DNA of 64,000 bases, taken from sequence record MN850580.1; one strand, 5' to 3'. Within the stretch, counting starts at the first letter, position 1. Every line of letters begins with the position of its first letter. Below the pieces are notes generated by a model. It saw nothing but the letters and a program-made list of their open reading frames with translations, searched no databases and was not told the origin of the DNA. This stretch comes from Escherichia phage momo. The translations under genes were made by a program, and so were the position numbers. Of the stretch, positions 4,899 through 57,755 are shown piece by piece.

Positions 4899-4974
4899 TG
4901 GAGAATCCGAAGGGACTCGAACCCTTATAAACCTGTTTTGCAGACAGGCACATATCCATTTCTGTCACGGATTC
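4899..4974 (-). tRNA. tRNA-Cys(GCA): tRNA-Cys (anticodon GCA), CCA encoded
   Basis: Manual cloverleaf: acceptor GAATCCG/CGGATTC, anticodon loop CUGCAAA, T-loop. Confidence 0.65.
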
Positions 4975-4978
4975 AAAT

Positions 4979-5071
4979 TGGAGGAAGATACCAGACTTGA
5001 ACTGGTACACCGATTTCTCAGCTACTGGCAGTTTAGCAAACTGCTCCCTTACCTTTTAGGGTTAATCTTCC
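4979..5071 (-). tRNA. tRNA-Ser(GCU): tRNA-Ser (anticodon GCU), long variable arm, CCA encoded
   Basis: 93 nt; acceptor GGAAGAT/ATCTTCC; anticodon loop UUGCUAA. Confidence 0.6.
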
Positions 5072-5072
5072 A

Positions 5073-5870
5073 TTATTTCTGTAATGCGCTCTTCATTTCT
5101 GGTGTTGCAATAGTGTCAATCACACCAGTTTTACAAGCATCGTCAAACCAGTCTGGTAAGATACCTGCTAAGAACCCATTGATATTCGTTTTAAGGTACT
5201 CTGCAATAAGGGCAGCTTCTTCTTCAATCATCTGCACAACTTCATCTGCATAAGCTGTAATCTTTGAAATACCTTCATTAATCTTACTGACAGCTTGGTT
5301 AGCTAAATCAGAAACAGTATCAAGACCCTTATCAATAGCATCTTGTAAGTCACTTAACACACCATTAACACTATCTAGTGTACTGTTCATCATGTCAATA
5401 GCTTTTTGACCATACTCTGTAGCAACACCCATGATACCACTGAATGGTGTACAACCAACTTGTTCTCCTGCTGCACCCATAACATTGGAATACCCCTTTG
5501 CTACCTGCATACGTGATGAAAACTCATCAATAGATTTTTGACCGTAGTCTGTCAGAGTTTTAGTAGTTGCTGTAGTGCTTGTAAGGCTTGTTGTAAAGCT
5601 GTTTAGAAGGACTGTTGTAAGTCCAGCAGCAACAAGTTTCTCCTTCATTGTAGGGTCTGTTACAGAACTAATAGAGCTTACAAGTGATGTAGAAGCAGCT
5701 ACGGTTCCACCGAGAACTGCTGCACCAGTAATAAGCGGGTTAGAGAACCCTTTACCAGTTTTTAAGAGATTAAAAATCTCCTTACCTTGTTCTGTCATCT
5801 CTTTCATTAAGCACCTTTGAAATTGGTAGTCCAGTGGGATTTGAACCCTCTTCTCATGTTTTTCAGACAC
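5073..5870 (-). CDS. hypothetical protein embedded in tRNA array
   Basis: 265-aa ORF between tRNA genes; Ser/Thr-rich middle region. Confidence 0.4.
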   Translation of the reverse strand: MSEKHEKRVQIPLDYQFQRCLMKEMTEQGKEIFNLLKTGKGFSNPLITGAAVLGGTVAASTSLVSSISSVTDPTMKEKLVAAGLTTVLLNSFTTSLTSTTATTKTLTDYGQKSIDEFSSRMQVAKGYSNVMGAAGEQVGCTPFSGIMGVATEYGQKAIDMMNSTLDSVNGVLSDLQDAIDKGLDTVSDLANQAVSKINEGISKITAYADEVVQMIEEEAALIAEYLKTNINGFLAGILPDWFDDACKTGVIDTIATPEMKSALQK

Positions 5871-5899
5871 GCGCTTTAACCATATAAGCTACTTGGACT
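5824..5899 (-). tRNA. tRNA-Phe(GAA): tRNA-Phe (anticodon GAA)
   Basis: Anticodon loop CUGAAAA, T-loop TTCAAAT, CCA encoded. Confidence 0.6.
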
Positions 5900-5905
5900 A
5901 TAAAT

Positions 5906-5981
5906 TGGGGTGACCTACGGGATTTGAACCCGTATAGACCATGTTCACAGCATGGGTCATTACCGTTTATGATAAGGCCAC
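5906..5981 (-). tRNA. tRNA-His(GUG): tRNA-His (anticodon GUG)
   Basis: Acceptor with one G-U pair; anticodon loop CUGUGAA; CCA encoded. Confidence 0.65.
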
Positions 5982-6012
5982 ATTTAAGGACTCTCGCAAG
6001 AATCCTTAGAAG

Positions 6013-6088
6013 TGGCAGCGGCATAAGGATTTGAACCTTAATAGGACAGCTTCAGAGGCTGCTGCATTGCCAGTTATGCTATACCGCT
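6013..6088 (-). tRNA. tRNA-Gln(CUG): tRNA-Gln (anticodon CUG)
   Basis: Anticodon stem GCAGC/GCUGU, loop CUCUGAA. Confidence 0.55.
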
Positions 6089-6093
6089 AAATT

Positions 6094-6172
6094 TGGTACT
6101 CCATATCGGATTCGAACCGATACATAACACAGATTTTAAGTCTGGCCTCTCTGCCAATTGGAGTAATGGAGC
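6094..6172 (-). tRNA. tRNA-Leu(UAA)?: tRNA with anticodon UAA (Leu by anticodon) but short variable loop
   Basis: Acceptor and T-arm clear; anticodon loop CUUAAAA; no long extra arm. Confidence 0.5.
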
Positions 6173-6174
6173 AT

Positions 6175-6250
6175 TGGCGGGGGATGTTGGAATTGAACCA
6201 ACTTCTTCGATTTCAAAGACCGAGGTTTTAACCTTGTAAACTAATCCCCT
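6175..6250 (-). tRNA. tRNA-Gln(UUG): tRNA-Gln (anticodon UUG)
   Basis: Anticodon stem UCGGU/AUCGA, loop CUUUGAA; possible 1-72 mismatch. Confidence 0.55.
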
Positions 6251-6258
6251 TTAAATCT

Positions 6259-6816
6259 TTACTTTCTCAGTGGATGAATAAAGAATGCCAACATAACTCT
6301 TTCCCTTGAGAATGCTCTTTCTTCTGGGACAACACTTTTTAGTTTCCATCCAACATAAATTCTCCAGTAAAACTGTTTACCAAAGATTTTAATTGACGGA
6401 ATAAAAGCGAATAATCCCCAAGCATTGTTGTTCCACATTAGGAGATAACCTGTCTGATTATCTTCAGGGTCAGAACTTACGTTGATATTACCTTTCCACT
6501 TAGTAACATCTTTTACATCTCTTCCTAATACATGGTAAGAGAAGTTATAAGCTTTGTTTCTCCAGAGCCATCCAACTCTCTGCATATAAACACCGAGCTT
6601 GCCAATCTTTCTAATCTTAGCCCATCTTTTAATGTGACCTTCATCACCATCAATAGGGTTGTCATATGTCTCCATCCATCTGAATCCAAAAGGTAGATGC
6701 CCTTTCTTCTCACTATAGAATGGAACTACAAAAGGTGCTAAGATAACTGCTAAGGTTGCTGCCAATGGGTCTAACAAAGCTAGGAAAATCCATGAAGCAT
6801 ACTTCAAATATCTCAT
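6259..6816 (-). CDS. hypothetical membrane protein embedded in tRNA array
   Basis: 185-aa ORF with hydrophobic N-terminal segment. Confidence 0.4.
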   Translation of the reverse strand: MRYLKYASWIFLALLDPLAATLAVILAPFVVPFYSEKKGHLPFGFRWMETYDNPIDGDEGHIKRWAKIRKIGKLGVYMQRVGWLWRNKAYNFSYHVLGRDVKDVTKWKGNINVSSDPEDNQTGYLLMWNNNAWGLFAFIPSIKIFGKQFYWRIYVGWKLKSVVPEERAFSRERVMLAFFIHPLRK

Positions 6817-6835
6817 TTAAATAGCCTCTTTAAAT

Positions 6836-6911
6836 TGGCGCAGGATAAGGGATTCGAACCCCTATTAACAGCTTCGTAGACTGCTGCTCTATCCATTTGA
6901 ACTAATCCTGC
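6836..6911 (-). tRNA. tRNA-Arg(ACG): tRNA-Arg (anticodon ACG)
   Basis: Perfect acceptor GCAGGAT/ATCCTGC; anticodon loop CUACGAA. Confidence 0.65.
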
Positions 6912-6916
6912 AAAAT

Positions 6917-6994
6917 TGGTGTTCCAAGACGGATTCGAACCGTCACTAGTACAAGGTTTGAGCTTGCATCCTCTGCCAATTGGGATATTGGAAC
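6917..6994 (-). tRNA. tRNA-Leu(CAA)?: tRNA with anticodon CAA (Leu by anticodon) but short variable loop
   Basis: Acceptor GUUCCAA/UUGGAAC; anticodon loop CUCAAAC. Confidence 0.5.
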
Positions 6995-6995
6995 A

Positions 6996-7070
6996 TGGTA
7001 CTCACTAAAGGACTTGAACCTTTTTCTTCATCTTGTAAGGGTGATGTTTTACCATATAAACTAAGCGAGT
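6996..7070 (-). tRNA. tRNA-Val(UAC): tRNA-Val (anticodon UAC)
   Basis: Anticodon loop CUUACAA; T-loop TTCAAGT. Confidence 0.55.
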
Positions 7071-7165
7071 ATGAAAGAGGTCTGAAGTTGTGCCGCTAAC
7101 TCAACTCCGTGGAATTTGTTACGGTCTTCAGTTGACACCAGCGGTCTTTCACTTGACCTCTGAAT

Positions 7166-7241
7166 TGGTGCTCCCACAAGGATTCGAACCCTGATAAGTT
7201 GCTTACAAGGCAACCGTAATAGCCAATTATACGATAGGAGC
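7166..7241 (-). tRNA. tRNA-Thr(UGU): tRNA-Thr (anticodon UGU)
   Basis: Anticodon stem GUUGC/GCAAC, loop CUUGUAA. Confidence 0.65.
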
Positions 7242-7248
7242 ATTAATT

Positions 7249-7323
7249 TGGAGCATCCAGAGGGAATCGAACCCTCAACCTCAGTTTGGAAGACTGTAAT
7301 TTTCCCGTTTAAACTATGGATGC
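7249..7323 (-). tRNA. tRNA-Gly(UCC): tRNA-Gly (anticodon UCC)
   Basis: Perfect acceptor GCAUCCA/UGGAUGC; anticodon loop CUUCCAA. Confidence 0.65.
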
Positions 7324-7329
7324 ACTAAT

Positions 7330-7403
7330 TGGTGGAGTCACTGAGAATTGAACTCAGTTCCCAAGTTTGCAAAACTCGAATTTTAACCATATAAACTATG
7401 ACC
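7330..7403 (-). tRNA. tRNA-Ala(UGC): tRNA-Ala (anticodon UGC)
   Basis: Acceptor GGGGUCA with G3-U70 pair (Ala identity element); anticodon loop UUUGCAA. Confidence 0.65.
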
Positions 7404-7410
7404 CCATTGT

Positions 7411-7486
7411 TTGGTACAGGTGGAGGGAATTGAACCCATCGTCTTACTGATTAAGAGTCAGCCGCATAACCATTTTGCTACACCTG
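7411..7486 (-). tRNA. tRNA-Lys(CUU): tRNA-Lys (anticodon CUU)
   Basis: Anticodon stem GCUGA/UCAGU, loop CUCUUAA; weak T-stem. Confidence 0.5.
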
Positions 7487-7493
7487 CATTAAT

Positions 7494-7571
7494 TTGGTAG
7501 GAGACAAGGGATTCGAACCCTCAAACATCTCGTTCTAAGCGAGATAGGTTTACCAATTACCGTCAATCTCC
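7494..7571 (-). tRNA. tRNA-Leu(UAG)?: tRNA with anticodon UAG (Leu by anticodon) but short variable loop
   Basis: Perfect anticodon stem UCUCG/CGAGA, loop CUUAGAA; 5-nt variable loop. Confidence 0.55.
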
Positions 7572-7830
7572 CATTAAATCTTTTTAGAGAACTTCTAAGA
7601 ACCTAAGCAACAAGGTTCCACAACAAGCTGTAATAACCTTAGAAGCCCTCTAAAAAGACCTAAAAAGGTCTTTGCATAGTCTTGTTTAATCCGGTGACTA
7701 GAACCTTTGGAGAGCTTGATATTATCTCTTCTCCGTGACACCTACTAGGTGCTTTACTGTGCGTGTACGACAATACACTAGGGATACCAAAGCAACATCC
7801 GAATGAAGCTTGGCTTTAAATCTTATTAGG

Positions 7831-7918
7831 CGGTAAGTAAAGGAGTCGAACCCTCACCGTATCTCTACAGTGGCAACTGTTTTCAAGACAGTTTGGCTAC
7901 CATTAGCCGCTACCTACC
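7831..7918 (-). tRNA. tRNA-Ser(UGA): tRNA-Ser (anticodon UGA), long variable arm, no encoded CCA
   Basis: Perfect anticodon stem ACUGU/ACAGU, loop CUUGAAA; discriminator G. Confidence 0.6.
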
Positions 7919-7931
7919 CCTAATAAGACTT

Positions 7932-8014
7932 TGGCATGGGACGGAGGAGTTGAACCACTTTGAAACGGTTTTGGAGGCCGTTGCTCATGCCTTAGAGTCT
8001 TAACATCGTCCCAC
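7932..8014 (-). tRNA. atypical tRNA-like gene (possible anticodon CCA, Trp) with extra nucleotides between acceptor and D region
   Basis: Clear acceptor GUGGGAC/GUCCCAU, T-arm and encoded CCA, but D-region does not fold canonically in manual fold. Confidence 0.4.
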
Positions 8015-8157
8015 ACTATAATTCGAAGCTTACCGTATTTTCACAACACTGTAAAGCCCCTTCTCAGATTATTTACATGTTCTGGAAAACATGAGATACA
8101 GACCACCTCCTTACACGGAGACCCGATAAGGTCGTCTAAGTAATCTGCTAACTAAAT

Positions 8158-8239
8158 TGGTCGAGGCGGCAGGACTCGAACCCGCATACTCCACTTACTC
8201 GGTTAACGGCGGTTTAGAAGACCGCTGAGATACGCCCCG
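8158..8239 (-). tRNA. atypical tRNA-like gene; one perfect 5-bp stem with loop CUUCUAA (UCU), no canonical D-arm
   Basis: Acceptor CGGGGCG/CGCCUCG, T-arm and CCA present; body folds ambiguously. Confidence 0.35.
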
Positions 8240-8487
8240 TAATTATCTTTAAAGACTCTCTTAGAAAGCCCTTAAAGATGCCCACCTTATTAATCATACC
8301 GTGGGCTAGTACGCCAAATTCTTTGATGAGGGATTGGAAGACCTCACTGGTGTTTAGCCTATCAAGCTACTGCCAGAAAAACATTGTCGTTTGCATTTAT
8401 TTTAAATTTGCAAAATAGACGCTACGCAACGAAAACTAAGGTTACTATAAAGTAGTCGCATCTCAATGTCAACAACTTTATTGAAAT

Positions 8488-8563
8488 TGGTACTGGTAGG
8501 TGGAATCGAACCACCGATGTTCCCTTATCAGGGGAGTGTTATAACCTTCTTAACTATACCAGC
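8488..8563 (-). tRNA. tRNA-Ile(GAU): tRNA-Ile (anticodon GAU)
   Basis: Anticodon loop CUGAUAA; T-arm GGUGG/CCACC. Confidence 0.6.
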
Positions 8564-8564
8564 T

Positions 8565-8641
8565 TGGAGGTTCAGATGGGAATCGAACCCACATTCATAG
8601 GGCTTATGAGACCCTTGCATTACCTTATCTGCGACTGAACC
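8565..8641 (-). tRNA. tRNA-Met(CAU): tRNA-Met (anticodon CAU)
   Basis: Perfect acceptor GGUUCAG/CUGAACC; anticodon loop CUCAUAA. Confidence 0.6.
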
Positions 8642-8645
8642 ATAT

Positions 8646-8720
8646 TGGTAGAAGTGGAGGGATTCGAACCCATCGCCTGTCAGATTAAAAGTCTGCCGCA
8701 TCACCATTCTGCTACACTTC
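8646..8720 (-). tRNA. tRNA-Lys(UUU): tRNA-Lys (anticodon UUU)
   Basis: Anticodon stem GCAGA/UCUGA (one G-U), loop CUUUUAA. Confidence 0.6.
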
Positions 8721-8872
8721 CATTAAATTATCTTTGTAGATAAGCTACCCAGACTTGCTTAAGGTCTGTAGCGATGTGACTTTTTGGGTTTAAATCTAGA
8801 ATTTACCCTTTCACCCTTTGTGGTCGCATACTCACAGGTAAGCTTAATAACTTATCTACAAAGATAATTACC

Positions 8873-9003
8873 AGACCGTTGTTTATCATCTTAAGTGCTA
8901 CCATTACACCAACTCGACCTCTGCCGAGTGAAGGAATCGAACCTTCGCCTTTTCTTTACCGAGAAATAGATTGTTTAAGTTTTGCTGTAAACGGTCTTCT
9001 GTA
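8873..9003 (-). repeat. tRNA-spacer hairpin repeat (CCAGACC...GGTCTTCTG) enclosing a T-arm-like hairpin
   Basis: Inverted termini CCAGACCGTT / AACGGTCTTCTG; internal GAAGG-AATCGAA-CCTTC with no matching acceptor stem. Confidence 0.4.
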
Positions 9004-9013
9004 AATTTGTTGA

Positions 9014-9113
9014 GCCAGACCAAGTTTTAAATTTTTTCAAAATTGAATTGGCTTGAAAATATCATACATTCTTGCTGTATTTGGTCTTCTACTCCTTTAA
9101 AGAATACTCGTAA
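9014..9113 (-). repeat. tRNA-spacer hairpin repeat (CCAGACC...GGTCTTCT)
   Basis: Same terminal inverted repeat as 8873-9003. Confidence 0.4.
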
Positions 9114-9152
9114 GAACTCTTTAAGGGAGGGGCTAAATAGCCCTCTCAAAAT

Positions 9153-9230
9153 TGGCGGTTACGAAGGGATTTGAACCCTCATCATCTCCCGTGACAGGGG
9201 AGTATTTTAACCAAATTAAACTACATAACC
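9153..9230 (-). tRNA. tRNA-Asp(GUC): tRNA-Asp (anticodon GUC)
   Basis: Perfect anticodon stem CUCCC/GGGAG, loop CUGUCAC. Confidence 0.65.
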
Positions 9231-9235
9231 TTTAT

Positions 9236-9323
9236 TGGTGTGCCGTGTAGGAGTCGAACCTACCGAGTCTCAATGACAAGGGATTTACAGTCCCCACCGC
9301 TACCATCTACGGGATAACGACAC
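9236..9323 (-). tRNA. tRNA-Tyr(GUA): tRNA-Tyr (anticodon GUA), long variable arm
   Basis: 85-nt body; anticodon loop CUGUAAA. Confidence 0.6.
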
Positions 9324-9331
9324 ATTTAATT

Positions 9332-9408
9332 TGGCGGTTAGTCAGGGATTCGAACCCTGTGCCATTCGCTTAACAGGCGACCGCACATACCTTATGTGCT
9401 TCCTAACC
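9332..9408 (-). tRNA. tRNA-Asn(GUU): tRNA-Asn (anticodon GUU)
   Basis: Anticodon loop CUGUUAA; T-arm CAGGG/CCCUG. Confidence 0.55.
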
Positions 9409-9418
9409 TTAATACATT

Positions 9419-9481
9419 GCCAGACCGTGTTTTTTCTTTTATCCGCAAAAAAGTATTTTGTTGCTGAATACGGTCTTCTGC
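9419..9481 (-). repeat. tRNA-spacer hairpin repeat (CAGACCGT...ACGGTCTTCTG)
   Basis: Terminal inverted repeat, immediately 3' of tRNA in transcript orientation. Confidence 0.4.
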
Positions 9482-9486
9482 AAAAT

Positions 9487-9563
9487 TGGAGGCGGGTGCA
9501 GGAGTCGAACCTGCCGATACCATGCTAATGAGACATGTGAGACGCCCTTTCTCTATACCCGCA
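9487..9563 (-). tRNA. tRNA-Met/Ile2(CAU): tRNA with anticodon CAU (initiator Met, elongator Met or lysidine Ile2)
   Basis: Anticodon stem CAUGU/GCAUG, loop CUCAUUA; possible 1-72 mismatch. Confidence 0.5.
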
Positions 9564-9574
9564 ATTCTTAATGA

Positions 9575-9648
9575 CCAGACCAAATCTCTTCTTTGTCCGA
9601 TTTACCTTCAGATGAATAAGATTAAGTTTGCTGTAATTGGTCTTCTGT
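9575..9648 (-). repeat. tRNA-spacer hairpin repeat (CCAGACCAA...TTGGTCTTCTG)
   Basis: Terminal inverted repeat as in the other spacers. Confidence 0.4.
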
Positions 9649-9654
9649 CAAAAC

Positions 9655-9732
9655 TGGCGTTCCAGAAGGGATTTGAACCCTCAGATATCCACTTTGAAAG
9701 AGTGGTGACTATACCATTTTGTCTACTGGAAC
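9655..9732 (-). tRNA. tRNA-Glu(UUC): tRNA-Glu (anticodon UUC)
   Basis: Perfect acceptor GUUCCAG/CUGGAAC; anticodon loop CUUUCAA. Confidence 0.65.
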
Positions 9733-9739
9733 ATTAATT

Positions 9740-9816
9740 TGGTCTCTGTTGGAGGACTTGAACCTCCGGCCTTACCGCCCCAAACGGAACGCTCTACCAA
9801 TCTGAGCTAAACAGAG
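9740..9816 (-). tRNA. tRNA-Pro(UGG): tRNA-Pro (anticodon UGG)
   Basis: Perfect acceptor CUCUGUU/AACAGAG; D-arm GCUC/GAGC; anticodon loop UUUGGGG. Confidence 0.65.
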
Positions 9817-9934
9817 ATAAACTTTTCAAACTCTATGTAACCACTTTAACATTATTTTTTAGTGGTTGTCAAGAACTTTTTTAAAATATTTTTCAGTATC
9901 TTAGAAAAGCTCTCATTTCGTTTCTATGTAGAAC

Positions 9935-9963
9935 ATATTAAAGGGTATCAAACACATTGTCAA
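9935..9963 (-). promoter_or_regulatory. sigma70-like promoter for the tRNA array
   Basis: Minus strand TTGACA, 17-nt spacer, TAATAT, about 120 nt upstream of first tRNA. Confidence 0.5.
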
Positions 9964-11397: not shown

Positions 11398-11478
11398 ATT
11401 TTACTCTCTTCTCTCATTTGTTGTTTGATGTGACAGACTTTAGAGCAACTTTGTAGAGTCTGTCAACACCTTTTAAAA

Positions 11479-11850: not shown

Positions 11851-12099
11851 TGGTATGCCTCTTATAAGACCTCTTAAAAGGCTTTTAAGATAAAAGATAG
11901 ATATCCAGAAAGATATCTGTTTAAATAGCCTTTTTAGAGGAACCTTTTAAGTTATCTTCTAAGTATTTATAAGCCTACACCTTGTCAAGTACTTTGTCAA
12001 CAACTTTTTTAACTTGCAATAGTTCTTGACTTGTTGTATGGATTACTGTACCATCTTACTTAAAGCTGTAGGTCTGCCTTGTTCTACAAAGGAGACTTA

Positions 12100-18496: not shown

Positions 18497-19058
18497 TGTT
18501 GTGATAGCTATGGAAAAAGATAACTTAAAAGAAGTTGAAGGTAACTACCTAGTCCTTGACTGGAGTGATGTTCGTGAAGCACTCTCCGAAGAAAATCTTG
18601 ACTGGTTCCAACAAATTATCTTTGCAGTACGACATACCAGAGAAGTTGAAAATGGTAAAGAGCCACTTGAAGGAATCTTTGTAGAGAAGTCTTATCCGTT
18701 CTATGAAGACACTTTACAGAAAGTTAAAATGTACTTTAAACAGAAGAACCGTAAAGTGGTCACTATGGTATCTCTTGGTGGACAGAGTATGTCTGTGATG
18801 GAAGATATCAACCCTAAGAGACCGAGCAAAGGTGTCTGTATAAAAATCACAGGGCATGAAGAGTATATCTCAGTGGACGATTTTAGTGTGTTCTGTAATG
18901 GTTCTGCTGTCTTTAATGGGTTTCACTATGATATCCGAGTGTACCCAATCAAGGGAGATGATATCATGATGCAGATATTCGATAACAACAATGGATTTAC
19001 TCATTTTTATCAGACAACCAAGTCATCATTAAAAACAGTTCTGGAAACACTGATTTAA
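18465..19058 (+). CDS. hypothetical protein
   Basis: 197-aa ORF; true start may be internal MEKDNLKEV. Confidence 0.4.
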   Translation: MQYQPTKFYDNVVIAMEKDNLKEVEGNYLVLDWSDVREALSEENLDWFQQIIFAVRHTREVENGKEPLEGIFVEKSYPFYEDTLQKVKMYFKQKNRKVVTMVSLGGQSMSVMEDINPKRPSKGVCIKITGHEEYISVDDFSVFCNGSAVFNGFHYDIRVYPIKGDDIMMQIFDNNNGFTHFYQTTKSSLKTVLETLI

Positions 19059-19068
19059 AATATCTTAA

Positions 19069-19100
19069 GAGCCTCCTTAATTGGGGGCTTTTTAATTTTT
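19069..19100 (+). terminator. rho-independent terminator closing plus-strand cluster
   Basis: AGCCTCC-loop-GGGGGCT followed by TTTTTAATTTTT. Confidence 0.5.
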
Positions 19101-19105
19101 ATAAA

Positions 19106-20700
19106 ATTTTATCGGTTGTCCCAACCTCTGGGTCACCATCATATGTGAATAAAATATCTACCCTTCTTAACAACCTTCTTAAGCTTACTCTCTATATATA
19201 GTTATATAGTACTATATAGTATCTTAGTATCTATCTAGTGGTCTTAATAGCCCCTCTGTATAGCCCTTCTAAATAGCCTTCTAAACACTCTTCTAACAAG
19301 CCTTCTTAATAACCTATACAATCACCTTAACCATTCCTCTACACACTCTTAGAAGCTCCTATACACCTCTTAATCTCTATGTCAGCTATGATACCCTCTA
19401 TAGGTGTTCACTAGGTACTACTAAGCCTCTATATAGACTGTTTTAACAAACTTAACAGGAATATCTTCACAGACTTTATCTCACAAGGTCTAACACGGCA
19501 CTAACAAGGTATCTTATAAGCCTGTTTCTACCTGTATTTTTAAAAGACTGTATAGGTAATTATTCAGAATCTTAAAATTTTTATAAAATAGAGCTATCAA
19601 GTCATTTTTTAGGGTCTTTGAAGGAACTGAAAAATATCTGTAGAAGATGTATATCTGCTTGGTAGCCCTTAACAGCCCCCTTACAAGTACTTTGCAAAAT
19701 TTTAAAATATCCTTAACAATCTCTTAACAGTTCTCACACCTTCTTAACAACTCTTCAAAGGTCTTAACAGATTCTTAACAGAACTAACAAGGATGTAACA
19801 GTTTTCTAACAAGTGCTGAATAGGCTTTACAGAATCTTAACAGATGACTAACAAGAGCTAAGTAGTTAAATGTTAAGAGTTATTTTGTTAAGATAATTAA
19901 CAAGTTTCTAACAAGTGTTTAATCTTTTTAACAAGCTATTAACATGGTCACTACTCTTTTCTTATCGTTCCCTTTGCTTCTTAGTGATTCTTTAAACATA
20001 CCTCTTAAAAGCCCTCTATAGCTCCTTGTAAGCTCTTTTAAGTCTCTTCCTAGTATTTACCCCCAACTATACAGACACCTCTTTATAAGGCTTTACAGAA
20101 GCTTTAAAGGCTATGTCAAAGGCTCTTACAAGGCTTTTACATGGTCTTAACAGAGATTTAACAAGGGGCTAACAAGTTGCTAACAAGTGCCTTAAAAGCA
20201 TAACTATGTAGGGTTTGTTAAGAAATTGTTAAGAAAATGTTAAGGGGGCTAGCATTTACGTAACTTTTAAGCTACTTCAAAATAACTTTTAAACTACTTC
20301 AAAATAACTTTATAGCCCCCTTCTTAGATATTCACAAGATAGCTAACGAGATAATAAAGCTTACACCCTTATAAGATTCTTTTAAGTCTCTGGGAAGCTT
20401 TATAAAGGGCTTTTTAGGGTGAGTTAATGCAATCCCTTAAGTTAGGTTGATAAGGCTGTTATAGAGCTTTATAGAGCGTTTAAACGGTTGCCCTTCCCTT
20501 TCGGGTTATGGGCTTATATTTAAGTTGATTTGATAAAAGGCTATAGAGTAGACTATAGAGTTATTGCTTTTTAAGGTCTGATAAGATTCTGGAAAGGAAA
20601 GGGAAAGGGCTGTATAAGGGATTTGATAAGACGTAAAAAAGCCCCTATGAGATAGACTCTATCGAATCTATATGGGAAAGGGGCTGTAAAGGTATCTGGG
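19106..20700. promoter_or_regulatory. 1.6-kb non-coding region dense in short direct repeats; candidate origin / regulatory hub
   Basis: No ORF over 60 aa; more than 20 copies of (T/C)TAACA(G/A)G, TATATAGT repeats at 19195-19245, 21-nt tandem duplication at 20281-20322. Confidence 0.5.
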
Positions 20701-20972: not shown

Positions 20973-21051
20973 TTTAGAATCTCCAGTTTAGGAAGTTGAT
21001 TAAGGGTTTTATTTAGTGGGGAAGGTCATTCCCTCCCCGTTGATTGACAAT
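20973..21051 (-). repeat. conserved stem-loop plus leader cassette, variant A
   Basis: GGGGAGGGAATGACCTTCCCC hairpin then CTAAACTGGAGATTCTAAA leader. Confidence 0.6.
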
Positions 21052-21665: not shown

Positions 21666-21801
21666 GATTGCAAGCAATTTTTTAAGCTTATCTATAAAGA
21701 ATCTTTTAAGTGAATCCCTTTTAGATAAACCCCCTCGAACAAAGTTACCAATGTCAAGGGGTATTGTCAACACTTTTTAAAAGTTTTTTGTAAGTTATTG
21801 A

Positions 21802-23367: not shown

Positions 23368-23467
23368 TTTAGAATCTCCAGTTTAGGACTTTACTTAGTG
23401 GGGAAGGTCATTCCCTCCCCGTTGATGTGTAATTTAATCTATCTAAAAACCGGTGTCAACAAAATTT
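23368..23467 (-). repeat. conserved stem-loop plus leader cassette, variant A
   Basis: Same hairpin and leader. Confidence 0.6.
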
Positions 23468-26672: not shown

Positions 26673-26845
26673 TTCTCAAAGAGTTCAGCAGGGAAACGTT
26701 CGCTATAACCTTTTAAGGAAAAAGTGTTATCTTTGTGGATAGCTTCCACCTGATAAACCTTATAAGAACGTATAGTTAGCATTTTGTAAGAGTATTCGTG
26801 CTTAATGTTAACCTCATCGCCAACTTTAATTTTTCTTGATGCCAT
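26657..26845 (-). CDS. hypothetical small protein (first gene of cassette array)
   Basis: 62-aa ORF preceded by leader CTAAACTGGAGAATCTAAGAAATG. Confidence 0.45.
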   Translation of the reverse strand: MASRKIKVGDEVNIKHEYSYKMLTIRSYKVYQVEAIHKDNTFSLKGYSERFPAELFEKWSAK

Positions 26846-26890
26846 TTCTTAGATTCTCCAGTTTAGGAAGTGGGCTTGATTGCCCGTCTG
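26846..26890 (-). repeat. leader half of cassette, no hairpin
   Basis: Leader motif with SD GGAG only. Confidence 0.45.
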
Positions 26891-27096
26891 ATGCAGATAT
26901 TAGATAACCATACTCAAAGAGTCAATAGGAATTTTAAAAATATTTTTTTTTTTTTTGCAAAGATTGTAATGAAACGGGTGCGCGCGACTACCATAAAACA
27001 GAACTACAATCAAGAATTATTTTTCAATCCGCTACAAATTTTTCTGTTGACTTTTATTTCCAGATGTGGTAGCCTTGTGAGAAATGGCGACATCCC

Positions 27097-27295
27097 CACC
27101 TGCACCCACCTACCTGCACAATTCTAAAATGATTTTTCTTGCCCGACCTGATTTTTCTCTGCACGTTTTGAAAATGAAAAAGCTCTTTGGAGATTACCTG
27201 CACAGTTTGAAAATGAATTTTCCCTTTGGAGTTCAAAATTTTCTCTACAGATTTCTCTACAGAACTCTACCTGCACAATCCTGAAATGAAAAAGC
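27097..27295. repeat. direct repeats (A/T)CCTGCACA...GAAAATGA, 5-6 copies
   Basis: Copies at about 27098, 27114, 27168, 27196, 27269; adjacent poly-T run at 26944-26958. Confidence 0.5.
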
Positions 27296-27362
27296 CCCCC
27301 TTACCTGAAAAATTTACCAGATAAGAAAGGCTTAGTCTATTGTGAATACTATACAGAATTTC

Positions 27363-28148
27363 TTAGTTCTTTGCGTCTAAGAAGGTTACTTCCGGTGAAG
27401 AGAAAACCGTCTCGATATCCTCATCATTTCTTGCATAGATGTAAGCATCTGCATCACTGCCAAATGTTACTGCAATTCTGTGATTGCTCTTCGACAGGTG
27501 GGTAACTAGAGCGTTACTTAGAGACATCTTCTCAACCGGAGGGTTACTTTGATGTATCTTACCTTTTCTTCGTCTGAAGAGGGTAACTGTATCATCTGTG
27601 AACATTACTACACCTGCAAAGTATTCTGGTTCACAGTAGTTATTCCAACCTGAGCGTAACTTGTGGTACATCTCTCCTTCGTAGACATACAGATAAACAT
27701 CTACACTCTTCATCACCTGATTAATGATAACTGTGACGGCTTGAGGGTCTAGCCCACCGATACCTGCACCAATCATAGGTAGACCAACTTTCTTCAACTG
27801 ATTGACTTCACAGTATCTGTTAAGCTGTTTCAAAGATGATTCTAAAGCACTGTATCGGGCATCTTTACCAGTCTTAAGCTGAGTGTAAAGGTTAGCTATT
27901 CGACCTTGTTTTAAACGTGCTACAGAGAAATTACCCAGTAAATTTTCACAGGGTTTGTGTCCTATACCACCTGCATATAGATAAACTTCTGTATCGGTCT
28001 CATATGCTTTTGGGTAAAGTTTAGAAATCTTGTCAGCGATACCTGCACCCATTAAATTCATACAGTTGCAACCGTGACCGATGATGTCAAACTTACCTTT
28101 ATCAAATGCGGCAAAGATATCACCATTGATTATTTTTACAATACCCAT
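27363..28148 (-). CDS. putative macro-domain-like protein (ADP-ribose binding/processing) with C-terminal extension
   Basis: N-terminal INGDIF...DIIGHGCNCMNLMGAGIA resembles the macro-domain N(A)AN and GGGV(A) motifs; assignment tentative. Confidence 0.35.
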   Translation of the reverse strand: MGIVKIINGDIFAAFDKGKFDIIGHGCNCMNLMGAGIADKISKLYPKAYETDTEVYLYAGGIGHKPCENLLGNFSVARLKQGRIANLYTQLKTGKDARYSALESSLKQLNRYCEVNQLKKVGLPMIGAGIGGLDPQAVTVIINQVMKSVDVYLYVYEGEMYHKLRSGWNNYCEPEYFAGVVMFTDDTVTLFRRRKGKIHQSNPPVEKMSLSNALVTHLSKSNHRIAVTFGSDADAYIYARNDEDIETVFSSPEVTFLDAKN

Positions 28149-43060: not shown

Positions 43061-43376
43061 CTTGTTGTTCAGGTAAGTTCGCTAAGCTTACCCCGCTTTA
43101 TTCAAGCTGCTTACTGTCGCCAGTAAGTCCAGACTATATCTTCTACTTATTTCTAAGTAGCGTACCATTTCGAGTCGCTTGACCCTACACCGCTACATTC
43201 ATCACGGTTAGTCGTTCGGCATTTAGATGTACTCAAACTCATATTCGAAGTTATTCGGTATGTAAGACTCCTATGTTGTATAGTTTCTTACATCGTACAT
43301 CATTTAGCACAGGATTGTCTACATCTGTAGAGTTTCCCTGTTTAGGCACGTTTTAGATGAGCTATAGAGCTTGTTA
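43061..43376 (-). other. putative self-splicing group I intron in nrdD (no ORF)
   Basis: Interrupts nrdD; starts with in-frame TAA after exon-terminal U; R-like GACTAA and S-like AGATATAGTC elements, GNRA-capped hairpin CTTACTG-GCGA-CAGTAAG, ends in G. Confidence 0.6.
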
Positions 43377-44573
43377 ACCCATCGGTGAAATTACCTTACC
43401 AGAACGCTCAAAAGCCTCTGCTACAGCACCATGTCCAGTTACACTTAAGAAATCTGGATACATCGCTTTAGAGCAACACTCAATAGCTTTTTCAAACAAC
43501 CTTGCTTGGCATACATCAAGCTTATGTCTCGTTTCTTCATAGATATACACAAGTTTAGGGAACACAACAGGTTTTTTGCTTTTTCCTTGCCCGTTCATCC
43601 TTACGTTAAGGATTGTATTGGCAATCATAAACTGAAGACGGTTATCTTCATTGTGCATATCTGGTTCCAACAGACCAAATGTCAGAGTAGTAAATGCAAA
43701 ATCACCGCGACTGCAAGGAACAGTGTTAAGTTTCATTTCAAGAGATTGGAAACCTTGTGTTAACTCATTCTGTAATTGCTCCATTACGTAATTATAGTGT
43801 TGCTCTTTAGGGATTCCGTACTCTTCAGCTTTCTCTGAGTGGTACACTAAAGACTTCTTAGCATACGGTACAAGTACCTTATCAATCTCTGCTAAAGTAA
43901 AGCCACCAAATTGCTGTGCAGTTGCTGAAAGAACTACATCACCAATAACCTGTAAGGCTGACAGCACAGACTTCGGTTCACAGTATTCAATGCCAGACAT
44001 TTCAAAGCCACCTTTCAGCACTTTACCAATGTCAAACAGGCAACAGTTGATACCACCAAAAATTAGGTCTCTTAAATCATGGATATAGATAAACCCTTTT
44101 TCAATGGCTTCAAGTTCCTCTGGTGTTAAATGGTACTGTTTAAAGATTTCTTTAGTCAGGTAACCACGGATAATTGAACCTTTCGTAGAAATTAAACTGC
44201 TGTCAAAGTTAGCATTTTCACGGTCACCTAAGAAGAGTGTATCTTTAGTCTTCTGGTAGAGTTCATCCCAATTTTGAGCAACCTCTTTACGGTAATTTCT
44301 GTATGTTGAGTAAGACTCATAAATCTCGTGATTAACTTCTGCCAAAGCACCTTCAACAATACTGTGAATATCATTTACCGAGATAAGCAAATTATTCTGC
44401 TTAGTGGACTTTACCAAAATCCTCATGAATGCTGACTCAAGAGCTTGGGTAACATCTGGTGGAAGTTCTTTATATCCAACCCTGTTAGCTGACTTAGCTA
44501 CTGCTGCTAAAACTTTTTTTATATCAGGTTCTTCAAGTGAGCCGTTCTTTTTAATAATCTGTACTTTGTTCAT
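43377..44573 (-). CDS. nrdD: anaerobic ribonucleoside-triphosphate reductase NrdD, exon 1 (N-terminal ATP-cone and core)
   Basis: ATP-cone-like N-terminus (IIKKNGSLEEPDIKKV); spliced product about 714 aa, matching class III RNR size. Confidence 0.65.
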
Positions 44574-57498: not shown

Positions 57499-57755
57499 GT
57501 AAGCCTCTTTTAAGTAACTATTAAGTTTTAATCTTTTATCTTAACGTATTCTATACGTTATACTTTAAAGCTTTTTAAAAGCTATTAAATAATCTTTTAA
57601 GAGTTTTAAAGTATCTGTATAGTTAAACTGTTAAGTAACCTTTTAAGTAAAAACCCACTTCGCAAAGATTAACACCTTGTCAAGTACATTGTCAACTTGC
57701 TTTTTATAATTTTTTGCAGTAATGTATGAGGTTAATGATTTTAGAGGGAGTAAAA

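What the first reader, a model, noticed from the sequence alone, without database searches (positions are those of the whole stretch)
26890..27360. Direct repeats (A/T)CCTGCACA...GAAAATGA and a 15-nt homopolymer upstream of the cassette array
Five to six copies of ACCTGCACA followed ~10 nt later by GAAAATGA lie in the 470-bp gap separating the macro-like gene from the first gene of the cassette array, along with a T15 run at 26944-26958. Regular spacing suggests an operator array or a strong early control region.
Basis: seen in the sequence. Interest (0 to 1): 0.4.

Follow-up and report, generated by a model that had tools for sequence, protein, structure and literature searches.

The report
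Conserved repeat array beside early promoter
In this Felix O1-like phage, the gap after the macro-domain gene holds a terminator, four copies of a repeat found nowhere else in the genome but kept in all related genera checked, and a strong early promoter; the repeats probably bind a protein, and their job (perhaps starting DNA replication) is untested.

Summary
The window is a Felixounavirus, 99.5% identical to phage allfine over the queried stretch. All genes around the finding lie on the minus strand.

There are four composite units (CTGCAC-N6-NAAATGA, 0.1 expected by chance), not five or six. Their spacing is 45/39/73 nt, so it is not regular. The homopolymer is T14 at 26943-26956, and the gap is 517 bp.

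Read in the direction of the genes, the gap contains:
- an intrinsic terminator, whose hairpin is kept through stem changes in five lineages;
- the repeat array, TCATTTY-N6-GTGCA;
- a variable G/C tract, then a conserved AT-rich block;
- a near-consensus UP element plus TTGACT-17-TAATAT.

The T-run is the distal A-tract of that UP element. It is 4-6 A in about 45 relatives, 9 in allfine, 13 in finno and 14 here, so its length is not conserved.

The array has 3-4 units in every Ounavirinae lineage examined and is unique in the genome. It is not coding, shows no conserved RNA fold, and its units are not sigma-70 promoters. It is not the genome end, which lies 7 kb away.

The best reading is a cluster of binding sites for one protein, with the layout of an iteron-type replication origin. 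That function is inferred only.

The parts
27363..28148 (-). Macro-domain ('phosphatase') gene, 261 aa. It is the conserved upstream neighbour of the array.
   Evidence: ORF. Pfam Macro domain. PHROG 335. Annotated in relatives.
27292..27333 (-). Intrinsic terminator hairpin of the upstream operon. Its U-tract (CTTTTTCATTT, 27281-27291) is also the 5' part of repeat unit 1.
   Evidence: Scan hit with 17 pairs. The hairpin is kept with different stems in Felix-type, finno/Si3-type, Moogle-type and Erwinia-phage lineages. It equals Felix O1 terminator t13 (PMC3185647, Table 2).
27268..27290 (-). Repeat unit 1 (minus strand: TTCATTTCAGGATTGTGCAGGTA)
27240..27263 (-). Exact 12-nt tandem duplication (plus strand TTTCTCTACAGA x2) lying between units 1 and 2. 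It belongs to a second, looser 'TGTAG' motif family.
   Evidence: family D9; alignment
27195..27217 (-). Repeat unit 2 (TTCATTTTCAAACTGTGCAGGTA), preceded by the box ACTCCAAAGGG
27156..27178 (-). Repeat unit 3 (TTCATTTTCAAAACGTGCAGAGA), preceded by the box TCTCCAAAGAG
27111..27133 (-). Repeat unit 4 (ATCATTTTAGAATTGTGCAGGTA), preceded by the box GGTCGGGCAAG
27063..27110 (.). Variable G/C-rich tract, including a partial unit (GGTGCAGGTGG, 27095-27105). In most relatives a C-rich tract (minus strand) replaces it; its complement has four G-runs.
   Evidence: alignment; composition
27000..27062 (.). AT-rich block (73% A+T) conserved in the Felix- and Moogle-type relatives aligned. On the plus strand it holds TTGACT (27047-27052) followed 17 nt later by a weak TAGCCT, pointing into the array.
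   Evidence: Erwinia phage has TTGACG-18-TATACT on the same strand between its early promoter and the array.
26976..26988 (.). Short GC-rich palindromic segment. Relatives carry different sequences here that still read as short GC-rich palindromes (judged by eye).
   Evidence: alignment
26928..26956 (-). UP element (-38 to -59; matches the consensus AAAWWTWTTTTnnAAAA at 14 of its 15 specified positions) plus the A14 run (26943-26956, positions -53 to -66).
   Evidence: Sequence. Run-length survey. The UP consensus comes from my own knowledge (Estrem et al. 1998).
26897..26925 (-). Core sigma-70-type early promoter TTGACT-17-TAATAT. The predicted transcription start is near 26889-26892.
   Evidence: conserved in relatives; annotated as a promoter in phage ASO1A
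26846..26888 (-). 5' leader with a small hairpin (GGGC 26885-26882 / GCCC 26875-26872) and a Shine-Dalgarno GGAG, ahead of the ATG at 26845. The leader is repeated before other cassette genes.
   Evidence: Alignment (hairpin kept with different stems, judged by eye). Repeat hits at 20974, 22146, 23369 and 23880.

Best explanation
The 517-bp gap is a composite boundary region. All positions below are read on the minus strand, the direction of the flanking genes.

1. Terminator. An intrinsic terminator ends the macro-gene operon.

2. Repeat array. Directly after the terminator, and overlapping its U-tract, comes an array of four same-orientation two-part repeats: [G-rich box]-W5-TCATTTY-N6-GTGCAGGT. 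It occurs once per genome and is kept throughout the Ounavirinae.

I take the array to act on the DNA as a cluster of binding sites for one sequence-specific protein. That protein is probably phage-encoded, because the right half-site differs between Felix-type phages (GTGCAGGT) and Erwinia phages (GTGCATAG). The bound protein would build a nucleoprotein complex.

The overall layout is direct repeats, then an AT-rich block, then a short GC-rich palindrome, flanked by an outward strong promoter and a possible inward one. That is the layout of an iteron-type replication origin. This is the specific role I commit to, at about 0.25-0.3.

3. Early promoter. The T-run belongs to the first early promoter of the small-gene block. 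It is an expanded distal A-tract of a near-consensus UP element upstream of TTGACT-17-TAATAT.

Shown here: the motif statistics, the conservation, the uniqueness of the array, terminator covariation, the promoter/UP sequence match, and the absence of coding or RNA-fold signals.

Inferred only: protein binding and origin function.
For: Motif statistics and uniqueness:
- The motif is enriched: 4 copies against 0.1 expected.
- It is found only at this locus in the whole 86,963-bp allfine genome.

Conservation:
- The array is the only part of the gap that still aligns with Erwinia phages (query 270-372 = window 27115-27217).
- There are 3-4 units in every lineage examined. TCATTT and GTGCA are near-invariant, while the N6 spacer and the stretches between units vary.
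- Erwinia phages carry four units 37-39 bp apart.

Restricted distribution:
- The pattern occurs only in Ounavirinae in IMG/VR and in metagenomes. The other hits do not align to the window locus and look like unrelated tandem repeats.

Not coding:
- No ORF is conserved, and the Erwinia phage has none of 30 aa or more.
- Unit spacings of 37 and 41 nt are not multiples of three.

No RNA structure:
- Folding z-scores are +0.8 (plus strand) and -2.1 (minus strand); the minus-strand MFE includes the 17-pair terminator hairpin.
- No pair shows a compensatory change on the gene-sense strand, and the covariation term is about zero on both strands.

Other:
- The AT-rich block next to the array is unique in the window and conserved in the Felix- and Moogle-type relatives aligned.
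- The terminator is supported by stem changes that keep pairing.
- Promoter and UP element.
- A-run length polymorphism.
Against: - No initiator gene has been identified, and none lies next to the array.
- The replication genes (primase/helicase, DNA polymerase) are about 26-30 kb away.
- The replisome is T7-like (Felix O1 paper), and T7-type origins need promoters and AT-rich DNA rather than iterons.
- There are no good DnaA boxes (two or more mismatches), no IHF sites and no GATC in the gap.
- Unit spacing (73/39/45) is wider and less regular than in classical iteron arrays.
- The GC-skew profile gives no support; it follows gene orientation.
- The 1.6-kb non-coding region around the terminal repeat is an equally plausible place for the origin.
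- No transcription, binding or replication data exist for this group in the searched library.
Confidence: 0.4

Rival explanations
1. Regulatory or insulator array. The units would bind a phage or host factor that either blocks read-through from the macro operon into the early block (a roadblock backing up the terminator) or switches the adjacent early promoter on or off from a distance.
For: - The array starts in the terminator's U-tract and sits at the junction between conserved genes and the mosaic block of small early genes.
- Its distance to the promoter's -35 is similar in all lineages, about 180-210 bp.
- The phage encodes a Cro/CI-type HTH protein, allfine_8 (HTH_3, E 5e-10).
Against: - The units are 170-370 bp from the -35 hexamer and do not overlap the promoter.
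- No other promoter-like site in the window carries the motif.
- Cro/CI-type proteins usually bind palindromes, whereas these are asymmetric direct repeats.
Confidence: 0.2
2. RNA-level element. The repeats would act as single-stranded motifs in an RNA. That RNA could be terminator read-through on the minus strand, or an antisense transcript of about 250 nt started at the plus-strand TTGACT (27047) and ended at the hairpin. One possible role is a decoy or an antitoxin-like repeat RNA, as with ToxI or the pseudo-ToxI of phage PhiTE.
For: - Unit lengths of 37-45 nt fall in the size range of type III antitoxin repeats.
- A plus-strand -35 hexamer preceded by an AT-rich stretch is conserved, and in Erwinia phage it forms a 10/12 promoter, TTGACG-18-TATACT.
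- The plus-strand units keep an invariant AAAUGA.
Against: - In Felix-type phages the plus-strand -10 is poor: TAGCCT here, TAAGAG in most relatives (read).
- There is no conserved fold and no covariation on either strand.
- Similarity to ToxI is at chance level (best p about 0.06; the other four comparisons 0.17-0.93).
- No ToxN-like or other toxin gene is nearby.
- No matching array exists in enterobacterial genomes.
- Felix-type spacing is irregular.
Confidence: 0.12
3. Relic of local duplication, or a recombination scar. Copies of the terminator tail would have been duplicated and kept without any function of their own.
For: - Unit 1 is the terminator's own U-tract plus downstream sequence.
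- Units 2 and 3 look like 'mini-hairpin + T-tract' copies.
- Mosaic breakpoints fall inside the array: the finno and Si3 types lose homology within unit 3 and have three units.
Against: - The core positions are near-invariant across the Ounavirinae lineages examined, while the spacers and the neighbouring genes diverge or are swapped.
- The same two-box motif is kept in Erwinia phages, whose gap otherwise does not align.
Confidence: 0.08
4. DNA-entry pause or anchor site like the T5 injection stop signal. The array would mark the inner limit of a first-entering segment that carries the early genes.
For: - The array lies 7.4-7.6 kb, about 8.5% of the genome, from the right physical end. The T5 signal lies at 7.9%.
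- As in T5, the untranslated repeat region is better conserved than the small ORFs next to it.
Against: - No two-step entry is known for Felix O1-like phages.
- The terminal repeat here is about 0.6 kb, not 10 kb.
- There are no DnaA boxes.
- None of the ten neighbouring proteins scanned matches a family of known function apart from the macro protein, so nothing T5 A1/A2-like was recognised.
- Which genome end enters first is unknown.
Confidence: 0.05
5. Small protein gene (annotated as gp13 in phage wV8; here the 50-aa ORF 27124-27276 minus, or the plus-strand ORF in that frame: 66 aa from 27084, 51 aa from the ATG at 27129).
For: ORFs of about 50 aa are open on both strands in core Felixounavirus genomes.
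Against: - The ORFs are lost, shifted or absent in Moogle-type, finno/Si3-type and Erwinia phages, although the DNA motif is kept.
- Indels of 2, 4 and 5 nt occur between genera.
- The same-strand ORF starts with GTG, and I saw no Shine-Dalgarno sequence ahead of it.
Confidence: 0.02

Closest known systems
Iteron-type replication origins (lambda ori: four 19-bp repeats, an AT-rich region and a palindrome; plasmid iteron origins; T4 oriE with its repeats). Recalled from my own knowledge.
   Same: - Several same-orientation direct repeats of about 20 bp.
- Present once per genome.
- Next to an AT-rich block and a short GC-rich palindrome.
- Promoters close by.
- Lies in one of the few long non-coding gaps of a gene-dense genome.
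   Different: - Unit spacing is 37-75 bp rather than about 21-22 bp.
- No initiator gene is identified or adjacent.
- No DnaA, IHF or GATC sites.
- The replisome is T7-like.
- No replication data exist.
T5 injection stop signal and the untranslated repeat regions of its first-step-transfer DNA (Davison preprint, 10.1101/866236)
   Same: - An untranslated, repeat-rich region that is better conserved than the neighbouring small early ORFs.
- Located about 8% of the genome length from a physical end.
- Borders a block of small early genes.
   Different: - The T5 region is 1.2 kb, full of palindromes and eight DnaA boxes, and lies inside a 10-kb terminal repeat.
- Here there are about 200 bp of direct repeats only, no DnaA boxes, and a 0.6-kb terminal repeat 7 kb away.
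- Two-step entry is not known for this group.
Type III antitoxin repeat RNAs (ToxI, 36 nt x 5.5) and the phage pseudo-ToxI mimic
   Same: Repeat units of 37-45 nt, tandem in Erwinia phages, lying next to a terminator hairpin.
   Different: - No toxin gene.
- No significant sequence similarity.
- No conserved fold.
- No good promoter in Felix-type phages.
- Spacing is irregular.
Strong phage early promoters with UP elements (T4 and T5 early promoters, rrnB P1), and the PeSL 'promoter-early stem-loop' cassettes of T4-type phages. Recalled from my own knowledge.
   Same: The T-run end of the gap is a near-consensus UP element, TTGACT-17-TAATAT and a 5' stem-loop ahead of a small ORF. Parts of the module recur before other small genes of the block.
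   Different: The A-tract is stretched to 14 in this isolate. The repeat array itself is not part of the recurring cassette module.

Membership tests
Sigma-70 promoter with UP element (the T-run end of the gap) | -35 and -10 hexamers 16-18 bp apart, with an A/T-rich UP element at -38 to -59 | tested here: met
   TTGACT-17-TAATAT at 26925..26897. The upstream AAAAATATTTTTAAAA matches the UP consensus at 14 of its 15 specified positions (sequence; consensus from my own knowledge). Conserved in relatives.
Sigma-70 promoter with UP element (the T-run end of the gap) | A mapped transcription start and early timing | not testable with these tools
   No start-site data for Felixounavirus in the searched library.
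Intrinsic (Rho-independent) terminator | GC-rich hairpin followed by a U-tract, with pairing kept in relatives | tested here: met
   17-pair stem plus CTTTTTCATTT. MFE about -25 kcal/mol for a 63-nt segment centred on the hairpin. Five lineages have different stems that all still pair. Listed as t13 in Felix O1.
Iteron-type replication origin | Three or more direct repeats of about 17-22 bp in one orientation at a single locus | tested here: met
   Four units here, 3-4 in relatives; unique in the genome.
Iteron-type replication origin | Adjacent AT-rich DNA-unwinding region | tested here: inconclusive
   A 63-bp block at 73% A+T (window mean 61%) and an UP region at 88% A+T lie within 50-170 bp. 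No unwinding calculation or 13-mer-type repeats were tested.
Iteron-type replication origin | A cognate initiator protein, usually encoded nearby; host DnaA or IHF sites | tested here: not met
   Apart from the macro protein, the nine flanking proteins scanned match no Pfam family, and their PHROG matches are all of unknown function. No DnaA box with fewer than 2 mismatches, no IHF site, no GATC.
Iteron-type replication origin | Replication starts there | not testable with these tools
   GC skew follows gene orientation and is uninformative.
Classical operator array | Sites overlap or abut the promoter they control, and are usually palindromic | tested here: not met
   The units are 170-370 bp upstream of the -35 hexamer and are asymmetric direct repeats.
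Type III toxin-antitoxin RNA (ToxI-like) or a phage mimic of it | Tandem 34-45-nt repeats under a promoter, then a terminator and a toxin gene; a pseudoknot fold | tested here: not met
   No toxin family was hit. ToxI alignment is at chance level. No conserved structure. Only the repeat length fits.
Genome terminus / packaging site (direct terminal repeat) | Coincides with the physical ends of virion DNA | tested here: not met
   The 581-bp terminal repeat of phage Pr103Blw (defined by PhageTerm and annotated in its record) maps to window 19661-20249. A 608-bp repeat was shown by Bal31 digestion in UAB_Phi87.
T5-type injection stop signal | Untranslated repeat region at the inner limit of the first-entering DNA, with DnaA boxes and two-step entry | tested here: inconclusive
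   The position (about 8.5% from the right end) and the 'more conserved than the ORFs' property fit. DnaA boxes are absent. Entry kinetics cannot be tested here.
Protein-coding gene (wV8 gp13-like) | Reading frame conserved among relatives | tested here: not met
Known RNA family (Rfam) | A match at or above the gathering score | tested here: not met
   No Rfam hit in 26,800-27,400. Across the window only tRNAs and one group I intron were found.

The most novel reading that the evidence does not exclude
The array would be a DNA-entry pause or anchor site, analogous to the T5 injection stop signal. It sits about 8.5% of the genome length from the right physical end. It would delimit a first-entering segment that carries the small early genes, and it would be held there by a protein bound to the TCATTTY-N6-GTGCA units until early proteins release it.
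Probability: 0.05. Interest if true: 0.8.

Novelty: new member of a known kind. Interest (0 to 1): 0.4.

Why it matters
Felix O1-like phages are widely used for Salmonella typing, biocontrol and therapy. Even so, the Felix O1 genome paper says it is not known how their transcription is temporally regulated, and my searches of the held papers found no replication origin described for the group.

This array is a compact non-coding element found once per genome and conserved across the subfamily. Genome records either leave it blank or annotate it as a hypothetical ORF.

If it is the origin, or another essential cis site, it must be preserved when these phages are engineered or minimised. It would also give a handle for finding the protein that binds it.

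The work also clears up three side issues. The long homopolymer is a slippage-prone UP-element tract, not a conserved signal. The contig breaks at this locus look like assembly artefacts. The true genome ends lie 7 kb away.

Tried and rejected
- **Genome end or pac site.** Several public contigs and records break inside this gap (KhF1, TH10, IMG/VR L023, L024, L026, L030). These breaks do not mark a real end:
  - the two ends of the KhF1 record overlap at only 89.7% identity;
  - TH10 has a 74-bp overlap of the kind assemblers leave;
  - L024 runs into what I recognise as a Nextera adapter, right in a C-rich tract;
  - L026 loses homology mid-array and continues in unrelated sequence, so it looks chimeric;
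  - the real terminal repeat maps to 19661-20249.
- **Units as sigma-70 promoters.** I tested both strands. The -35 hexamers are absent or inconsistent, with only one or two chance-like cases in Erwinia phages.
- **Small ORF.** Rejected because the frame is not conserved.
- **Structured non-coding RNA.** No Rfam hit. Folding z-scores are +0.8 and -2.1; the minus-strand MFE includes the 17-pair terminator hairpin. No pair shows a compensatory change on the gene-sense strand, and the covariation term is about zero on both strands.
- **ToxI or pseudo-ToxI similarity.** By eye, GTGCAG..AGAAA..TCAGGT looked similar. Local alignment scores are no better than for shuffled sequences.
- **Host copy of the array.** Scans of bacterial genomes, IMG/VR and metagenomes with a two-unit pattern gave only Ounavirinae, plus hits that do not align to this locus and look like unrelated tandem repeats.
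- **Host-factor sites.** DnaA, IHF and GATC were scanned and are absent or weak. By-eye comparisons with Fur, CRP, NtrC, the Mar box, CsrA, type I restriction sites and the CRISPR I-E repeat gave nothing convincing.
- **Rho-utilisation site.** The array RNA on the minus strand is C-poor: 26 C against 50 G.
- **GC-skew evidence for an origin.** Uninformative.
- **Literature.** I found no transcription start map, origin or description of this array for this phage group. The Bas63 knockout study text does not discuss this gap, and no supplement is held.

Full report
**What the window is**

The 1.1-kb stretch around the finding is 99.5% identical to Escherichia phage allfine and 83-96% identical to other Felixounavirus genomes. 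The window carries 25 tRNA genes and a group I intron.

All genes around the finding are on the minus strand:
- the macro-domain gene at 27363-28148 (Pfam Macro);
- the 517-bp gap at 26846-27362;
- a run of small genes from 26845 down to about 20300.

The gap therefore lies downstream of the macro gene and upstream of the first small gene.

**Checking the observation**

- Exact ACCTGCACA occurs three times, all inside the gap and nowhere else in the window.
- The two-part motif CTGCAC-N6-NAAATGA occurs four times (27114, 27159, 27198, 27271). Shuffles give 0.1 expected and none of 100 reaches four.
- One further ACCTGCACC (27098) has no partner.
- Unit spacing is 45, 39 and 73 nt, so it is not regular.
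- The homopolymer is T14 at 26943-26956.

The repeats are real and non-random. The copy number, the spacing, the run length and the gap size were all mis-stated.

**Anatomy of the gap, read 5' to 3' on the minus strand**

1. *Terminator.* A 17-pair hairpin (27333-27292) is followed by CTTTTTCATTT. Felix-type, finno/Si3-type, Moogle-type and Erwinia-phage lineages all keep a hairpin here but with different stem sequences. That pattern is what a real terminator should show. It is terminator t13 of the Felix O1 paper.

2. *The repeat array.* Each unit is a semi-conserved G-rich box, five A/T, TCATTTY, six variable bases, then GTGCAGGT. Unit 1 uses the terminator's own U-tract.

3. *Variable G/C tract* (27063-27110).

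4. *AT-rich block* (27000-27062, 73% A+T), conserved in the Felix- and Moogle-type relatives aligned and unique in the window.

5. *Short GC-rich palindromic segment* (26976-26988).

6. *Promoter module.*
   - AAAAATATTTTTAAAA matches the UP-element consensus almost perfectly. The consensus is from my own knowledge (Estrem et al. 1998).
   - TTGACT-17-TAATAT lies at 26925-26897.
   - A small 5' hairpin appears to be kept with different stems in relatives (by eye).
   - The leader and ribosome-binding region recurs before other cassette genes.

**The T-run**

On the coding strand the run is A14 at positions -53 to -66, which is the distal end of the UP element. About 45 related loci have 4-6 A at this position. 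Allfine has 9, finno 13 and this window 14. It is a slippage-type expansion in one sub-lineage and not a conserved signal. The conserved UP element stays intact.

**Conservation of the array**

A sensitive BLAST of the gap finds 288 phage records. The only part still aligned in Erwinia phages (Kolesnikvirus) is query 270-372, which is window 27115-27217, the core of the array.

Alignments of about 30 distinct loci show 3-4 units in every lineage. TCATTT and GTGCA are nearly invariant, while the 6-nt spacer and the segments between units vary.

Spacing of the GTGCA boxes:
- this window: 73/39/45;
- Moogle-type: 75/41/45;
- finno/Si3 type: 75/45 (three units);
- Erwinia phages: 37/37/39, a true tandem array, with the right box reading GTGCATAG.

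The composite motif occurs only at this locus in the complete allfine genome. Two-unit pattern scans of IMG/VR, JGI metagenomes and 185,000 bacterial genomes return only Ounavirinae. The remaining hits do not align to this locus and look like unrelated tandem repeats.

**What the array is not**

- *Not the genome end.* The 581-bp terminal repeat defined by PhageTerm for Pr103Blw is annotated at both ends of its record. It maps to window 19661-20249. A 608-bp repeat was shown experimentally in UAB_Phi87. The contig and record breaks inside this gap are best explained as artefacts. These are chimeric or overlapping ends, a contig running into what I recognise as a Nextera adapter at a C-rich tract whose complement has four G-runs, and one contig that looks chimeric.
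- *Not a gene.* ORFs of about 50 aa are open on both strands in core Felixounavirus, and wV8 annotates one as gp13. They are not conserved in other lineages and are absent in Erwinia phage. Unit spacings of 37 and 41 nt, and indels of 2-5 nt, break any frame.
- *Not a structured RNA.* There is no Rfam hit. The folding z-score is +0.8 on the plus strand and -2.1 on the minus strand, where the MFE includes the 17-pair terminator hairpin. No pair shows a compensatory change on the gene-sense strand, and the covariation term is about zero on both strands.
- *Not promoters.* No consistent -35 hexamer accompanies the -10-like AAAAT box on the plus strand, and the minus-strand hexamers do not fit by eye. 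A general promoter or operator motif would also not be confined to one locus.
- *Not a ToxI relative.* Alignment scores are at chance level, and no toxin-like gene is nearby.
- *No recognisable host-factor sites.* DnaA, IHF and GATC are absent or weak.

**Most likely mechanism**

What remains is a conserved, asymmetric, two-box DNA motif of about 19 bp. It is repeated 3-4 times in one orientation at a single site per genome. This is the signature of a cluster of binding sites for one sequence-specific protein.

The difference in the right box between Felix-type and Erwinia phages suggests the partner co-evolves with the site, and so is probably phage-encoded. That is an inference.

A function needed once per genome narrows the choice to an origin, a boundary or regulatory element, or an entry or anchoring site. 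The order of elements is direct repeats, an AT-rich block, a GC-rich palindrome, with a strong outward promoter and a possible inward one. The inward candidate is TTGACT at 27047, and Erwinia phage has TTGACG-18-TATACT on the same strand between its early promoter and the array. This order matches the textbook layout of iteron-type origins, so I commit to that reading at roughly 0.25-0.3.

Points against the origin reading:
- no initiator gene is identified;
- the replication genes are 26-30 kb away;
- the replisome is T7-like;
- the spacing is loose;
- the 1.6-kb non-coding region around the terminal repeat is an alternative site for the origin.

A roadblock or long-range regulatory role at the border of the early block is nearly as likely. 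The phage does encode a Cro/CI-type HTH protein, but nothing links it to these sites.

An RNA role cannot be excluded, and no evidence found here supports it.

**A low-probability but interesting reading**

The array lies 7.4-7.6 kb from the right physical end, about 8.5% of the genome. It bounds a block of small early genes that are transcribed toward that end. Like the T5 injection stop region at 7.9%, it is better conserved than the ORFs beside it.

No DnaA boxes are present and no two-step entry is known for this group. I put this reading at about 5%.

**Comparison with the literature**

The terminator is published (Felix O1 t13). A promoter is annotated at this position in at least one record (ASO1A). 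The Felix O1 paper lists direct repeats of 24 bp or more, but not this array.

My searches of the held papers on Felixounavirus found no transcription start map, origin or description of the element.

**Verdict**

The finding is a real, conserved and so far undescribed cis element of a familiar general kind, sitting beside ordinary terminator and promoter signals. Its function is unproven.

Noticed in passing
window 19661-20249 (non-coding region about 18,600-20,250): The physical genome ends lie here. The 581-bp direct terminal repeat annotated in phage Pr103Blw maps to this stretch, which is packed with CTTGTTAA/CTGTTAAGA-type short repeats. The window therefore comes from a circularly joined record that runs across the ends.
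   Followed up: partly
window 43110-43437 (minus strand): Group I intron (Rfam RF00028, 54.4 bits). It lies roughly where allfine annotates a split anaerobic ribonucleotide reductase gene with a homing endonuclease gene between the two parts.
   Followed up: no
window 4899-9816; also 8161-8239: ARAGORN tRNA genes on the minus strand. Rfam adds one weak tRNA-like hit at 8161-8239 (31.7 bits) that ARAGORN does not call, possibly a pseudo-tRNA.
   Followed up: no
relatives' equivalent of window 27063-27110 (e.g. L012, L018, L023, L024): Most relatives carry a C-rich tract (minus strand) whose complement has four runs of four or more G, so it could form a G-quadruplex. This window has an unrelated tract instead. 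Several metagenome contigs stop here, and one (L024) runs into what I recognise as Nextera adapter sequence.
   Followed up: partly
GenBank KT184313 (phage KhF1), loci L005/L006: The first 377 bases and the last 373 bases of the record cover the same intergenic region but are only 89.7% identical. This suggests a chimeric assembly of co-sequenced relatives rather than a terminal repeat.
   Followed up: partly
BLAST hits: One record named as a Campylobacter phage (A132, MG065664; 94% identical over the gap) and one named as a Staphylococcus phage (accession not listed in the output) match this Felixounavirus region. Mislabelling or contamination is likely.
   Followed up: no
window 27240-27263, 27344-27358, 27030-27040, 27004-27012: A second, looser motif family (YTGTAG) is present. 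It includes an exact 12-nt tandem duplication between repeat units 1 and 2, plus copies just after the macro stop codon and in the AT-rich block. The tandem pair also reads as two 2-mismatch DnaA-box look-alikes (TTCTCTACA).
   Followed up: partly
window 9843-9963, 11437-11466, 11972-12000, 21742-21770, 23431-23459, 57666-57695: Other TTGACA-type promoter-like sites have A/T-rich upstream tracts resembling the UP element. The one at 23459-23431 carries the same promoter and leader hairpin module that relatives have at the finding's position, which suggests cassette-like reuse of early promoter modules.
   Followed up: partly
L039 4174-4473 (allfine_8; outside the window): A 99-aa Cro/CI-type helix-turn-helix protein (Pfam HTH_3, E 5e-10), encoded among the co-oriented genes that include ligase, DHFR and thymidylate synthase. 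It is the one sequence-specific DNA binder I identified among the few proteins scanned. No target is known for it.
   Followed up: no
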